From assembly GCA_951406725.2 (NCBI GenBank), contig OX597821.1:109492001-109556000 (forward strand): a stretch of 64,000 bases of DNA, read 5' to 3'. This DNA is from Octopus vulgaris (lineage: Eukaryota). Below are positions 10,764-61,712 of this stretch, piece by piece. The notes under the pieces were generated by a model, which was not told the origin of the DNA, searched no databases, and was given only the letters and a program-made list of their open reading frames with translations. Numbering within the stretch: the first letter of the stretch is position 1; the number at the start of each line of letters is the position of its first letter. The position numbers and the translations under genes were made by a program.

Positions 10764-10899
10764 GGAAAGGATCGATGATCCACGCTTCCGCGGTTCGTAT
10801 TCGTATTGAAAATCGAGATCGAGCGAGCTTTTACCCTTTTGCTCGACATGTGGTTTCCGTTCACGCTCAGCTCGTCATTGAACATCTCCGTTCAGACAG
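10764..10899 (-). rRNA. 28S (LSU) rRNA fragment, pseudogenic
   Basis: Reverse complement GAGCAAAAGGGTAAAAGCTCGCTCGATCTCGATTTTCAATACGAATACGAACCGCGGAAGCGTGG...CGATCCTT matches the conserved eukaryotic LSU segment GAGCAGAAGGGCAAAAGCTCGCTTGATCTTGATTTTCAGTACGAATACAGACCGTGAAAGCG. Confidence 0.85.
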
Positions 10900-20700: not shown

Positions 20701-20748
20701 CGCAAATGTGTGCCTATAAGAAAAAATATTATGATTATTATTATTATT

Positions 20749-21275
20749 GAGTGAGAGAGCAGCCATGTTACACTGGGGTAAAATATATGAGGCCCAGTAT
20801 ACCCACCATGACTACCCGTCTGATAAGGGTACACTAGGCACATGCATCACAACCATATGTGCGCGACATGGTGATCTCATATCAAGATAAACAGCGCATG
20901 ACCTTGCAGGTGGGGCCCAGCTAGAATTTTCTTCTGGTCAAGTAGCCTATCTCGCTGAAAAGGTCCCTGAATAAGGATTGTTTAAGGATGTTGAACGAAA
21001 CACCCATGTTTCCAGAGATGAATTATTCAAACCCCAAAGAATCCCTTTCAACACATGGGTATGAAGCTTCCCCACTACTTCTGCTCGCGGTCAGAGATGC
21101 ACATATCATCAGCCACTAAAGGACTTGGTCAACTGACAAGCAAATCTGTGGTATTCAGCAGAATATTTGCTGTAGCCCATCTTTTATACCAAGACAAAAC
21201 AATGTACATGATAACACTTCCAATCAGTTAAGATCAGAAGCCAAGAGAGACACTGTTTGGTATTGCATCAGCGTA
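20749..21275 (-). mobile_element. Family D ~555-bp (TAA)n-embedded element
   Basis: Highly similar to 61160-61714 and 55449-55992; (TTA)n on both sides. Confidence 0.9.
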
Positions 21276-22698: not shown

Positions 22699-22768
<70 letters not shown>

Positions 22769-23204
22769 GAGTGAGAGAGCAGTGCATATCATCAAAGTGA
22801 TACTGGGGTAAAATATACGAAGCCCAGTATACCCCTCATGACTACCCGTCTGATAAGGGTACACCACACACATGCATCACAACCATATGTGCGCGACATG
22901 GTGATCTCATATCAAGATAAACAGCGCATGACCTTGCAGGTGGGGGCCAGTTAGAATTATCTTCTGGTCCAGTAGCCCATCCCGCTCAAAAGGTCCCTGG
23001 ATAAGGATTGTTTAAGGATGTTGAACGAACCGCCCATGTTTCCAAAGGTGAATTATCCAAACCTCTAAGAATTCCTGTCAACACAGGGCTATGATGCTAC
23101 CCTACTACTTCTGCTCGTGGTCGGAGATGCACATATCGTCAGCCACTACAGGACATGCTCAACTAGTTAAGGTCAAACAACTGACAAGAAAATCTGTGGC
23201 ATTG
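22769..23204 (-). mobile_element. Family D, truncated
   Basis: Same gagtgagagagcagtgcat end next to (TTA)n; far end missing. Confidence 0.9.
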
Positions 23205-23214
23205 ATCATTATCC

Positions 23215-25731: not shown

Positions 25732-26432
<701 letters not shown>

Positions 26433-26789
26433 GAGTGAGAGAGCAGTGCATGCCATCAAAGTGACACTGGGGTAAAATATACGAAGCCCAATATACCCAT
26501 CATGACTACCCGTCTGATAAAGGTACACCAGGCACATGCATCACAACCATATGTGCGCGACATGGTGATCTCATATCAAGATAAACAGCACATGACCTTG
26601 CAGGTGGGGCCCAGTTAGAATTTTCTTCAGGTTGAGTAGCCCATCCCGCTCAAACGGTCCCTGAATAAGGGTTGTTTAAGGATGTTGAAAGAACCACCCA
26701 ATTTTCCAGAGGTGAATTATTCAAACCCCAAAGAATCCCTCTCAACACATGGCTATGATGCTCCCCCACTACTTCTGCTCGTGATCAGA
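26433..26789 (-). mobile_element. Family D, truncated
   Basis: Same family as 61160-61714; abuts the long (TTA)n. Confidence 0.9.
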
Positions 26790-36444: not shown

Positions 36445-37398
36445 CTTCGTTCGGTCTATTTACAAGCTTTTTAATCCGATCAATGTAAAACTCTTTTGGT
36501 TTCAAAGCGAAGAACTCGGAAATGTCAGTTTCGACCTCCTCCTGGCTTGCGAAAGCTATGTCCCGAAAATGATTCTGTAAACTACGAATCAAATGGTAGT
36601 CTGAAGGAGCCAAGTCGGGAGAATAAGGTGGATGAGGAATTTTTTCCCAACCAATCTCTTCGGTCTTCTGTCATGTGATCTCTGCAGTGTGCGGTCGCGC
36701 ATTGTCCTGATGAAACATCATTCCTTTTCAGTTCACTAAAGAGGGTCTTTTTTTTCTTCAAAGCTTGGTTCAAACGCTCTAATTGCTGACAGTAGACTTG
36801 AGCATTGATTGTTGCATTACATGGTAATAATTCGAAGTAAATCACTCGTTTACAATCCCACCAGATAGGGAGAAGAACCTTTTCCCCATGAAGTTCCCAT
36901 CTCGGTTGTGGTTGAGCTTTTTCCCTTTTACCAACCCACTGTTTCCGACGTTTAACATCTCGATAGAAGATCCATTTTTCGTCACCAGTCACAAGTCTAT
37001 CCAAAAAGGGTGAAATGAGTTCGTGAGAATGGAGAGAAGAGCAGATAGCAACTCGGGATTTGCGGTTGCTTTCGGACAATTCATGAGGCAACAGTTGTAT
37101 GGTTTGAACTAAGCTTTATTGCCAATTCTTCAACTGATAATGCAGGATTTTCTTGAAGTAATGCCTTTTCTTCAAGTAATGCCTCATCAAACCCAGCTGG
37201 ATGTCCTGTTCGATCCTCATCTTCCAGGCTGAATACTCCACTTTTGAATTTTGCAATCCATCTTCTGCAAGTTCTTTCATTCAAGCACATTATTTCCCAT
37301 AAAGTGAGTGTATGTTTCGAGTCGCTTTTGGCTGGAGTGTTTCCCTTTTTGTACTCATAAAACATTATATTCCTCAAATGCTCTTTGGATACTTCCAT
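36445..37398 (-). pseudogene. Mariner (DD34D) transposase pseudogene
   Basis: MEVSKEHLRNIMFYEYKKGNT...SLEDEDRTGHP; PHELSE...LVTGDEKWIFY...WWDCKRVIYFELL; APSDYHLIRSLQNHF; several frameshifts. Confidence 0.9.
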
Positions 37399-44615: not shown

Positions 44616-45009
44616 GGATCTTTTCGGTTTGAACGGCAGTTTTTTCTAGCGGTGTCATATGAAATTGTCACCCATAATTATGACCCTAGTATCGATCTAT
44701 TGCATTTCAATTTATTTTAGGGTTAGGGTTAGGGTTAGGGGTGGGGGGAAGGGTATATTTTTTCTTCAGAAATGTAAATAAACCCAATCTGTTACGTAAA
44801 CGAGAGACATATTCATACGGCACATAATTATTTTTTACCTCAATAGACGTCAGTGATTGGCTGAAATTGCAGAAATTGAAGAAAAAAACCCAACAAATAT
44901 CTTATAAACTATAGAATTTTCTCAATAAAGCCAAGAGAAAAAGATGTTTTATAAACACATTCTACCAGTATACGAAGTTAAAAACTTGCTGTTCAAACCG
45001 AAAAGATCC
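44616..45009. mobile_element. ~394-bp MITE with ~30-bp TIRs and internal TTAGGG repeats
   Basis: ggatcttttcggtttgaacggcagttttt ... aaaaacttgctgttcaaaccgaaaagatcc; (TTAGGG)x4 at ~44717-44740. Confidence 0.8.
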
Positions 45010-45187
45010 CTCCAAGGTTGTTGACCCGGATCTCTTGACTGGAGGACATCCAGCCTCGTTTTGGAGACATCTTTAACAACATCATTTTTGTCTCTCAGAC
45101 TATTAGGTAGGACACTGAAGTGTTATGGACAATTGAAATCCAAGTCGTGACAGTATCCAGTGCTGTATCATGATGGATATATCATAT

Positions 45188-45229
<42 letters not shown>

Positions 45230-45258
45230 CGAGAAAGAAGCAACAAGAATGGATAGGT

Positions 45259-45349
45259 TTTTAGTACAATCGTTTCATACAAGGACAGGCTTTATTAAAA
45301 GTTGCAAAAATTACAGCATATAAACGTGTCCCGTACTCATCAGCTAAAA
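45259..45349 (-). ncRNA. Type I hammerhead ribozyme (left arm of palindrome)
   Basis: Mirror of 46234-46323. Confidence 0.78.
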
Positions 45350-46233
45350 TACATGTGAGTTCTCTAGACATCCTAGTGGTTGAGGCTATACTCATGAAGT
45401 AATGTAGATAATTAAGTAACATAAACAGATTTCCAAAGTTCATTAAAGTTCATTAAAGATGACGTACAGTCTTATCATAGAATTTTAAAAAAGTTTTAAT
45501 AGCATCACAGAGAAGGTGACCTAATCCATAGTGCACATATGAATTTCCAGAGATATGATGAGGGATTACATACTCACAGAAGACAAATGTATCCATTGTT
45601 AATTACAACGAGGTGGGTTTCAATTCCTGCTTATTAGCATTATAGAGAGGGTGAATTAATCCTTTGTATAGATGCACAATTTCCAATGGTGTAGATGTAA
45701 ATTTCCAGAGAAATGAAGAGGAATTTCAAATTCACAGGCGATAAGTTTATCAATGGTTGAACACAATGAGGTAGGTATCAATTCTTGTTATATAACAAGA
45801 ATTGATACCTACCTCATTGTGTTCAACCATTGATAAACTTATCGCCTGTGAATTTGAAATTCCTCTTCATTTCTCTGGAAATTTACATCTACACCATTGG
45901 AAATTGTGCATCTATACAAAGGATTAATTCACCCTCTCTATAATGCTAATAAGCAGGAATTGAAACCCACCTCGTTGTAATTAACAATGGATACATTTGT
46001 CTTCTGTGAGTATGCAATCCCTCATCATATCTCTGGAAATTCATATGTGCACTATGGATTAGGTCACCTTCTCTGTGATGCTATTAAAACTTTTTAAAAA
46101 TTCTATGATAAGACTGTACATCATCTTTAATGAACTTTAATGAACTTTGGAAATCTGTTTATGTTACTTAATTATCTACATTACTTCATGAGTATAGCCT
46201 CAACCACTAGGATGTCTAGAGAACTCACATGTA

Positions 46234-46323
46234 TTTTAGCTGATGAGTACGGGACACGTTTATATGCTGTAATTTTGCAACTTTTAATAAAGCCTGTCCT
46301 TGTATGAAACGATTGTACTAAAA
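46234..46323 (+). ncRNA. Type I hammerhead ribozyme, complete core
   Basis: ttttag-CTGATGA-GTACGGGACA...TGTCCTtGTAT-GAAA-C gatt G-TA-ctaaaa; 6-bp stem I, long stem II, minimal stem III. Confidence 0.8.
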
Positions 46324-46471
46324 ACCTATCCATTCTTGTTGCTTCTTTCTCGCTTATAATCACCCCACATTACTGTATTGTTAAATCAGTATAGTTTTCT
46401 TTTGGTGCATCTAAGTTAGGTACCATATTCAAGTTAATTCATTTAAATTAACCTGAATCTTTATTGCTTTT

Positions 46472-46529
<58 letters not shown>

Positions 46530-46929
46530 TGCTGTTCAAACCGAAAAGATCCGAAAATTCTTCAATCTCAAGACTGTTTCCTCTTCTCACATGGGTCTCG
46601 TCATAATTTTCATCTGGTAACTATGAAACATCCTCCAGAAGCGGTGTTAATTATTGTTAAAATTAAAAGAAATTGAGTCAAGACTATATGTGGTAGCTTG
46701 ATCCGATGAAAGTGGCAGTGTGGCAGTCAGATCTCCACCCCATCTCCCCCTCTCTGTCTCTCCCTCTTTCTCCCCCCCCCTCTCTCTCTCTCTGCATGCA
46801 TATATGGGTATAGGACACCATATATATATATATGTATATATATATATTCTTTTATTCTTCTGTTTCAGCCTTGGGGCTGCGGCCATGCTGGGACACCATA
46901 TACTATAATATATTATATATTATATTTAT

Positions 46930-55448: not shown

Positions 55449-55449
<1 letters not shown>

Positions 55450-55992
55450 GTACCAGGCAGAGGCTCTCATGGCTTCTGATCTTAACTGATTGGAAGTGTT
55501 ATCATGTACATTGTTTTGTCTTGGTAGAAAAGATGGGCTACAGCAAATATTCTGCTCAATACCACAGATTTGTTTGTCAGTTGTTTGACCTTAACCAGTT
55601 GAGCATGTCCCTTAGTGGCTGACGATATGTGCATCTCTGATCACGAGCAGAAGTAGTGGGGGAGCATCATAGCCATGTGTTGAGAGGGATTCTTTGGGGT
55701 TTGAATAGTTCACCTCTGGAAACATGGGTGGTTCTTTCAACATCCTTAAACAACCCTTAGTCAGGGACCGTTTGAGCGGGATGGGCTACTCAACCTGAAG
55801 AAAATTCTAACTGGGCCCCACCTGCAAGGTCATGTGCTGTTTATCTTGATATGAGATCACCATGTCGCGCACATATGGTTGTGATGCATGTGCCTGGTGT
55901 ACCTTTATCAGACGGGTAGTCATGATGGGTATATTGGGCTTCGTATATTTTACCCCAGTGTCACTTTGATGGCATGAACTGCTCTCTCACTC
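55449..55992 (+). mobile_element. Family D, near full length
   Basis: (TAA)n on both sides; ends ctctctcactc(aat)n. Confidence 0.9.
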
Positions 55993-56239
55993 AATAATAA
56001 TAATAATAATAATAACAGCTACAGCAATAATAACAAACCCAATAATAACGATGATGAGGATGATGATGATGATGATATTGACAACGACAACAACGACGAC
56101 GAAAATAACATAAGAAAGACCCGGGGAAAGCTCGGTTATTAAGCAAAACTAAATATATAAATAAAAAAAACAACAGCCCTTGCAACAAAACATATATATA
56201 TATAATTATTGAAAAAAGCCGCAATAGTTATGCACCAAC

Positions 56240-61097: not shown

Positions 61098-61159
<62 letters not shown>

Positions 61160-61712
61160 GAGTGAGAGAGCAGTTCATGCCACCAAAGTGACACTGGGGT
61201 AAAATATACGAAGCCCAATATACCCATCATGACTACCCGTCTGATAAAGGTACACCAGGCACATGCATCACAACCATATGTACGCGACATGGTAATCTCA
61301 TATCAAGATAAACAGAACATGACCTTGCAGGTGGGGCCCAGTTAGAATTTTCTTCAGGTTGAGTAGCCCATCCCGCTCAAACGGTCCCTGAATAAGGGTT
61401 GTTTAAGGATGTTGAAAGAACCACCCATGTTTCCAGAGGTGAACTATTCAAACCCCAAAGAATCCCTCTCAACACATGGCTATGATGCTCCCCCACTACT
61501 TCTGCTCGTGATCAGAGATGCATATATCGTCAGCCACTAAGGGACATGCTCAACTGGTTAAGGTCAAACAACTGGCAAGCAAATCTGTGGTATTGAGCAG
61601 AATATTTGCTGTAGCCCATCTTTTATACCAAGACAAAACAATGTACATGATAACACTTCCAATCAGTTAAGATCAGAAGCCATGAGAGCCACTGCCTGGT
61701 ACTGCATCAGGG

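What the first reader, a model, noticed from the sequence alone, without database searches (positions are those of the whole stretch)
45224..46358. 1.13-kb near-perfect spacerless palindrome with mirror-image intact hammerheads
The ~567-bp arms differ by about 4 changes and have no loop. Each strand carries a complete HHR near its 3' end (46234-46323 +, 45259-45349 -), so a transcript from either direction is a ~550-bp hairpin ending at a potential self-cleavage site. Fold-back pairing would compete with ribozyme folding. Each arm also has an internal ~160-bp-period diverged repeat, and (TA)n flanks the region. Long spacerless palindromes are normally unstable, so it is either young or maintained. 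It is a potential ADAR/Dicer substrate.
Basis: partly seen in the sequence, partly recalled or inferred. Interest (0 to 1): 0.75.

Follow-up and report, generated by a model that had tools for sequence, protein, structure and literature searches.

The report
Head-to-head Hydra-clade Penelope retrotransposon stump
This 1.1-kb mirror-image sequence is two back-to-back end pieces of a young, abundant Penelope-type jumping gene, each carrying that gene's predicted self-cutting RNA motif, likely made in one insertion by copying one RNA onto both strands of a cut TA repeat; the layout is already known, though the many copies give testable clues to how it forms.

Summary
The palindrome is real: 567/568-nt arms, 3 substitutions and 1 indel, no spacer, a hammerhead motif on each strand. 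Each arm is the 3' end of a young Penelope-like retrotransposon of the Hydra clade (931 exact ribozyme-word matches; intact 954-aa ORFs elsewhere). The insertion runs to 46473: the right arm alone carries the 115-nt Penelope 'tail', and (TA)n lies on both sides. The layout is the family norm: 42 of 61 sampled loci are head-to-head, 40 of 40 scored pairs have a tail on exactly one arm, and 15 of 40 are near-symmetric. This junction occurs once in the genome, so the palindrome does not move as a unit. It is young rather than maintained: its arms are no closer to each other than to sister copies. Likely mechanism (inferred): two cDNAs primed on opposite target strands from two start sites of one RNA, then joined at a native ATAT. 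The ribozyme is conserved but predicted to need a same-sense partner. dsRNA processing was not tested, and reads gave no locus-level test. The architecture is published, and this scan noted it before on other DNA (108 notes, at least 21 genomes).

The parts
45177..45223 (.). left (TA)n target microsatellite
   Evidence: 45177-45227; the last TATA is shared with the element end
45224..45791 (-). left arm: 5'-truncated 3' end (3'UTR/pLTR) of the Hydra-clade PLE, tail-less end
45260..45348 (-). hammerhead motif of the left arm (core from 45343, predicted cut after 45265)
   Evidence: cut site mirrored
45528..45791 (-). two diverged 107-nt repeats, period 157 nt (45686-45791, 45528-45634); native to the element's 3'UTR
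45790..45793 (.). head-to-head junction at a native ATAT micro-palindrome shared by both arms; junction unique in the genome
45792..46358 (+). right arm: same 3' end, same truncation point
45792..46055 (+). two diverged 107-nt repeats (45792-45897, 45949-46055)
46235..46322 (+). type I hammerhead motif: helix I, CUGAUGA at 46240, long interrupted helix II, GAAAC at 46306, 2-bp helix III in a self-complementary 8-mer, predicted cut after A46317
46359..46473 (+). 115-nt PLE 'tail', right arm only; in full-length copies it lies between the pLTR end and the ORF start
46474..46522 (.). right (TA)n target microsatellite

Best explanation
The palindrome is one insertion of two 5'-truncated 3' ends of a young Hydra-clade Penelope-like retrotransposon into a TA repeat, likely made when the element's enzyme primed two DNA copies of one RNA on opposite strands of the cut target and the two copies were then joined head to head. 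Shown: family identity, boundaries, one-sided tail, unique junction, near-identity of the two arms within each locus. Inferred: (1) the GIY-YIG nuclease cuts both strands of (TA)n; (2) one 3'-OH starts reverse transcription at the tail end and the other about 115 nt upstream at the pLTR end; (3) both cDNAs read the same RNA and here stopped at the same base; (4) their identical 3' ends annealed through the self-complementary ATAT and were filled in. The two hammerheads are passengers of the pLTR and are predicted to be inactive in a read-through hairpin.
For: Arms match 3' ends of copies whose ORF has a TERT-like RT fold and Hydra-type motifs. Of the first 100 of 931 ribozyme-word hits, 37 neighbour pairs are -/+ and none +/-; 42 of the 61 loci they define are two-armed. 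Tail on exactly one arm in 40 of 40 scored pairs and 19 of 19 further pairs. The tail-less arm is the longer one in 11 of 40, by up to 3018 nt, so it cannot be a copy of the tailed arm. Single-arm loci end at either site: 10 tail-less, 8 tailed, 1 unresolved of 19, so both sites prime. Pooled within-locus divergence is 0.30% against a median 1.66% between loci; 60 of 66 within-locus differences are private (54 of 59 loci scored), which fits one template. 15 of 40 pairs start within 15 nt of each other (shuffled mean 1.85, maximum 8 in 5000). In vitro, a Poseidon PLE cuts and extends both strands and starts at two sites that bound the tail (PMC11167929, main text read).
Against: No biochemical test of this family. 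Central deletion after a fold-back could also shorten either arm, and gene conversion could also make arms alike. One locus (L071) has 5 differences that segregate in the family, so its arms may come from two templates. 19 of 40 junctions hold filler bases rather than overlap. The sample covers only contigs C1 and part of C2. No independent read spans this junction.
Confidence: 0.7

Rival explanations
1. Self-priming fold-back: one cDNA folds back at its truncation point and copies itself; asymmetric pairs arise later by central deletion. The family identity is the same; only the mechanism differs.
For: Arms within a locus are near-identical and share private variants (36 in 54 loci); 15 of 40 pairs are symmetric; self-priming was proposed for these structures in PMC3846280 (passages read); L097 has a 42-nt inverted stub at its junction.
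Against: It does not explain why the copy stops at the same tail boundary in 40 of 40 pairs, or the 10 tail-less single-arm loci. Asymmetric pairs are no more diverged than symmetric ones (0.31% vs 0.27%, Fisher p=0.69), so no progressive deletion is seen. This junction would need a hairpin with a loop of 2 nt or less.
Confidence: 0.2
2. A maintained, functional unit: a palindromic ribozyme cassette that moves as a whole or serves the host as a dsRNA/siRNA source.
For: A transcript across it would fold into 562 base pairs; family sequence is present in two guessed-RNA contig sets; PLE copies yield small RNAs in rotifers (PMC3846280, passages).
Against: The junction 22-mer occurs at 1 locus while the native continuation occurs 108 times; closest sister loci have other junctions; arm differences are private and unconverted.
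Confidence: 0.05
3. Fold-back library or assembly artefact.
For: No independent read or contig spans the junction.
Against: The two ends differ in the family-typical way (tail on one side only), the flanks beyond the TA runs are different, the arms differ at 4 sites, and 58 other loci follow the same rule with their own junctions.
Confidence: 0.03

Closest known systems
Hydra-clade Penelope-like elements (Craig et al. 2021, PMC8557442; section 11, passages and supplement part 2 read), including Hydra-1_Obim and Penelope-13_HM
   Same: C-terminal EN, RWK, DKT, CxCX5C linker, CxxC and CxH motifs, no CCHH, hammerhead near the 3' end, (TA)n target; Penelope-13_HM is listed with a 5'-truncated inverted copy at its 5' end
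   Different: Unit is 4866 nt (Hydra usually under 3 kb) with two Asn-rich inserts and a 3'UTR of about 1.6 kb; the ribozyme has a much longer helix II and differs from the one listed for Hydra-1_Obim; the tail is 115 nt
Inverted pLTR plus one-sided tail of EN+ PLEs (PMC8557442 Fig. 2 legend; Adineta Pen2-4, PMC3846280, passages)
   Same: Head-to-head 5'-truncated copy, tail at one end, palindromic junctions, Asn-rich inserts in the ORF
   Different: Tail 115 nt rather than 30-40; no target duplication can be read in (TA)n; both arms here are equal in length
Anolis Poseidon PAc in vitro (Frangieh et al. 2024, PMC11167929; parts 1-2 of 4 read, whole text searched)
   Same: Ribozyme upstream of two start sites that bound the tail; AT-rich target
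   Different: Different clade; its ribozyme overlaps the ORF start; the paper does not link two-strand priming to inverted insertions (only use of 'inverted' is a blocked oligo)
Minimal PLE hammerheads (Cervera and de la Pena 2014, PMC4209133; parts 1-2 of 4 read)
   Same: Type I, tiny palindromic helix III, long helix II, extra base after the first box; pairs on opposite strands 100-700 bp apart were already reported
   Different: Helix II here encloses about 60 nt with two further stems
Non-LTR retrozymes (bioRxiv 10.64898/2026.07.22.740005, passages)
   Same: Non-coding, hammerhead-bearing, pLTR-related
   Different: Retrozymes are tandem, same-sense monomers; this is a truncated end of an autonomous element in inverted orientation

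Membership tests
EN+ Penelope-like element | Telomerase-like RT | tested here: met
   Model of the 954-aa ORF (pLDDT 75): the top 10 PDB fold matches are all telomerase RTs, best E 7e-9. Pfam gave no match.
EN+ Penelope-like element | C-terminal GIY-YIG nuclease | tested here: inconclusive
   VIY...YLG motif and beta-beta-alpha order are visible at residues 830-925; recognised from recall, no profile or fold hit to GIY-YIG was obtained.
EN+ Penelope-like element | Partial tandems forming pLTRs | tested here: met
   933-nt direct repeats at 99.9% flank the ORF in L086; direct repeats in several further full-length loci.
EN+ Penelope-like element | Inverted 5'-truncated copy and one-sided tail | tested here: met
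   40 of 40 and 19 of 19 pairs.
EN+ Penelope-like element | Target-site duplication | tested here: inconclusive
   Both flanks are pure (TA)n; the empty site was not recovered.
Hydra clade | RWK, DKT, CxCX5C linker, CxxC and CxH near the C-terminus | tested here: met
   RWK37, DKT124, CxCX5C815, CxxC912, CxH942 in P0001; most of 30 homologues share them (definitions).
Hydra clade | CCHH motif absent from the nuclease; insertion into (TA)n | tested here: met
   One Cys between the GIY and YIG equivalents; TA flanks in the scored pairs.
Hydra clade | RT phylogeny with named Hydra references | not tested
   No named reference proteins were held; the assignment rests on motifs.
Hydra clade | Generally short (under 3 kb) | tested here: not met
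   Unit 4866 nt, due to Asn-rich inserts and a long 3'UTR; a typical trait in the source, not a strict criterion.
Neptune clade | CX2-5CxxC linker and CCHH | tested here: not met
   Neither in P0001.
Hammerhead ribozyme type I | Core boxes and three helices with covariation | tested here: met
   14 related sequences: 96.8% of cells paired, 3 of 18 pairs with two-sided change, 0 of 500 shuffles reach the score; slid controls 21-44%. Sequences are related and the structure came from the window copy, so this is supportive, not a probability.
Hammerhead ribozyme type I | Self-cleavage | not testable with these tools
   Monomer MFE is not the ribozyme fold (-14.7 vs -13.1 kcal/mol constrained).
Non-LTR retrozyme | Tandem same-sense monomers of a non-autonomous unit | tested here: not met
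   Arms are inverted and continue into the ORF in longer copies.
Mobile fold-back element / MITE | Multiple copies sharing the same internal junction | tested here: not met
   Junction found at 1 locus.

The most novel reading that the evidence does not exclude
Hydra-clade PLEs insert by obligatory two-site twin priming on a single RNA: one cDNA starts at the tail end, the other 115 nt upstream, usually with a first C that the template does not encode there, and both often stall at the same base, so each insertion event can create a spacerless, kilobase-scale palindrome. A few hundred such young hairpin templates would exist in this genome, a ready test set for the unsolved origin of PLE inversions and for dsRNA editing in a cephalopod.
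Probability: 0.45. Interest if true: 0.55.

Novelty: new member of a known kind. Interest (0 to 1): 0.3.

Why it matters
As a locus it is ordinary transposon debris. Its value is in the family: how PLEs make inverted ends is still called an open problem (PMC8557442, passage), and the published suggestion is self-priming (PMC3846280). This young family with intact ORFs gives countable rules (one tail per pair, either arm longer, one template, shared stop points, a non-element G at tail-less ends) that favour two priming events and can be tested with the existing in vitro PLE assay. I found no paper stating this model in 4 full-text searches aimed at it (open-access library only), but earlier notes of this scan reached it on other DNA.

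Tried and rejected
Rfam at gathering score and at E<=10 found no hammerhead; the miRNA-type hits at the centre only reflect the hairpin. Pfam found nothing on the ORF; the PDB sequence search gave only a weak retron RT hit, E 0.011. No coding frame in the arm. My first clade guess, Neptune, was dropped on motifs. Read test of the locus: four DNA contig sets broke at the TA runs and the repeats and neither spanned the junction nor showed an empty allele; two raw-read runs laid 0 reads, so no test; two guessed-RNA contig sets hold family sequence but none crosses the centre or joins a unique flank, and they may be DNA. Homodimer prediction of residues 1-480: no verdict, score 0.00, alignment not used. 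A G(TA)nC target duplication as the source of the terminal G did not fit the flanks read by eye. One search used a mis-registered structure string; one search is the corrected count. One search timed out and was rerun. Rows left out of the 40 scored pairs: the C2:37.6 Mb composite, L087 (recognised as a pair later), L093 and L097 (second arm reaches no end). The L056 tail score was just above threshold (61 vs 60).

Full report
Observation. The palindrome is as described. The right arm (45792-46358, 567 nt) matches the reverse complement of 45224-45791 (568 nt) with 3 substitutions and one 1-nt indel and no spacer; each arm holds two 107-nt repeats at 75.7% identity, 157 nt apart. Hammerhead boxes lie on both strands. 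Rfam does not report them. The window is microsatellite-rich DNA of a 2.8-Gb genome, probably an octopus; this is inferred from a named Octopus protein among the homologues.

What it is. One arm has 1253 candidate matches in the genome; the 41 best full-length places are 97-100% identical (40 candidates scored). A 25-nt word from the ribozyme occurs 931 times, control 0. Longer copies continue upstream into an ORF. One locus gives the unit: 4866 nt, 933-nt direct repeats at 99.9%, and an intact 954-aa ORF; further ORFs of 949-1072 aa occur in 6 of 20 loci fetched for full length. The folded model matches telomerase RTs best. The motifs RWK, DKT, CxCX5C, CxxC and CxH, the lack of CCHH and the (TA)n target are those given for the Hydra clade. 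I first took it for Neptune; an earlier scan note naming Hydra prompted the check. No tree was built. The 157-nt repeat is part of the element's 3'UTR, not a feature of this locus.

Boundaries. After 46358 the right arm continues for 115 nt with sequence that, in full-length copies, lies between the pLTR end and the start codon. This is the PLE tail. The left arm stops at the pLTR end. The insertion is therefore 45224-46473, between two TA runs. Both arms start at the same element base, where the element has a native ATAT that forms the centre. The junction 22-mer occurs at one locus only; the native continuation occurs 108 times.

How common. The first 100 word hits (contig C1 and part of C2) gave 37 neighbour pairs in -/+ order, one --, one ++ and no +/-. 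They define 61 loci, of which 42 are two-armed head-to-head, 18 single-armed (10 tail-less, 8 tailed) and 1 unresolved. Among 40 scored pairs, all have the tail on exactly one arm, as do 19 further pairs taken from best BLAST hits, this locus included. 15 of 40 start within 15 nt of each other against a shuffled mean of 1.85; the tailed arm is longer in 14 and the tail-less arm in 11. Junctions show overlap in 17, blunt joins in 4 and filler in 19 of 40. Near-symmetric arms reach 2591 nt. So a 1.1-kb spacerless palindrome is a frequent product of this family.

Young or maintained. With low-complexity parts masked, pooled within-locus divergence is 0.30% and the median between loci 1.66% (54 of 59 loci); 60 of 66 within-locus differences are private to one arm, 5 segregate in the family (all in L071) and 1 could not be classed. 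Here the arms differ by 0.55%, while three arms at two other loci differ from the left arm by 0.37%. That fits a recent insertion with later point mutation and no conversion. If the calibration in PMC13282606 (JC 0.09 = 25 My; passages read) applies, the age is of the order of 1 My; this is a rough inference.

Ribozyme. Across 14 related copies from several subfamilies, 96.8% of cells pair, helix I shows U-A to C-G and A-U to G-C changes, and 0 of 500 shuffles reach the score (related sequences, so not a probability). Helix III has 2 bp, and its 8-mer is fully self-complementary in 13 of 14 copies in three sequence forms, the mark of ribozymes that work as same-sense dimers (PMC4209133). The PAc ribozyme cut only with protein and was not needed for insertion in vitro (PMC11167929). 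In a read-through RNA the antisense arm is made first and pairs far more strongly. The motif is thus under selection in the element but predicted to be silent in this hairpin. The predicted cut lies 41 nt from the tail-less end and 156 nt from the tail end, so the cut does not define either end.

Mechanism. A single cDNA that folds back cannot make a tail-less arm longer than the tailed arm, nor tail-less single insertions, unless DNA is deleted afterwards; asymmetric pairs are not older than symmetric ones (0.31% vs 0.27%, p=0.69). Two cDNAs primed on opposite strands from two start sites explain the one-tail rule directly and match the in vitro behaviour of PAc. Low within-locus divergence points to one RNA template. 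Equal stop points would follow if both copies end at the same break in the RNA, and two identical ends can anneal through ATAT. These steps are inferred. One more sign that the tail-less end is a priming junction: 42 of 64 tail-less ends carry a G where all 66 tailed arms carry T; the G form occurs 154 times genome-wide, the read-through form 258 times, and G with read-through 0 times. The source of that base is unexplained; this locus has the templated form.

Not shown. Reads gave no locus-level test, so polymorphism, transcription, editing and small RNAs remain open. An artefact is unlikely on internal grounds: unequal ends, different flanks, four arm differences.

Known context and verdict. 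Inverted truncated copies with a one-sided tail are described as typical for EN+ PLEs (PMC8557442; PMC3846280), opposite-strand ribozyme pairs were reported in 2014, and an octopus Hydra family is listed. This scan holds 108 similar notes in at least 21 genomes and many in this one; these are unchecked notes, not support. Verdict: a new member of a known kind, interest 0.3, with the family statistics as the useful part. Of the PMC8557442 supplement I saw part 2 of 59 and a term search; alignments in the rest may bear on the clade call.

Noticed in passing
L076 and L086 (G000:C2:37.617-37.628 Mb): Two full-length elements head to head, about 10.6 kb, each with its own pLTR; the left ORF is intact (954 aa), the right is broken into two frames; tail-less on the left end, tailed on the right.
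   Followed up: partly
tail-less ends across the family: A G not present in the element stands at the junction with (TA)n in 42 of 64 ends; an A in 12; templated or other in 10. Both end types then begin with C on the cDNA strand. Origin unexplained.
   Followed up: partly
P0001 residues 481-580 and 641-800: Two in-frame Asn-rich inserts (27% and 39% N, low pLDDT), like those reported for Adineta Penelope elements; homologues are about 700 aa.
   Followed up: partly
L077, L072, L088, L027, L045, L031 junctions: Filler made of short repeated copies of nearby element sequence; L031 holds an extra 118-nt piece covering the ribozyme. Resembles templated end-joining (recalled).
   Followed up: no
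L035:4848-4972: The second arm consists of the tail alone, opposite a 2.7-kb tail-less arm.
   Followed up: no
window 44616-45009 and 46522-46552: A complete 394-nt high-copy MITE with 30-nt terminal inverted repeats left of the insertion, and a lone terminal-repeat stub of the same family right after the right TA run.
   Followed up: partly
window 45008-45178: Old low-copy repeat fragment (7 other matches at 69-83%); covered by contigs in one of four DNA runs only.
   Followed up: partly
window 15357 and below, - strand: Another hammerhead-like motif with 5-bp helix I, unrelated to this family.
   Followed up: no
window 20741-21262, 22761-23208, 26425-26789, 55449-56000, 61152-61703: Five copies of another repeat, at least four next to (TAA)n runs; 55449 and 61703 form an inverted pair at 98%.
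   Followed up: no
window 10780-10883, - strand: 104-nt fragment of large-subunit rRNA, Rfam 68 bits.
   Followed up: no
window 36585-37115, - strand: 177-aa open frame with a TGDEKW motif, like a mariner transposase fragment (motif recalled).
   Followed up: no
P0028: An annotated Octopus ankyrin-repeat protein is 69% identical over 21% of the element's ORF, probably a gene model that includes a piece of the element.
   Followed up: no
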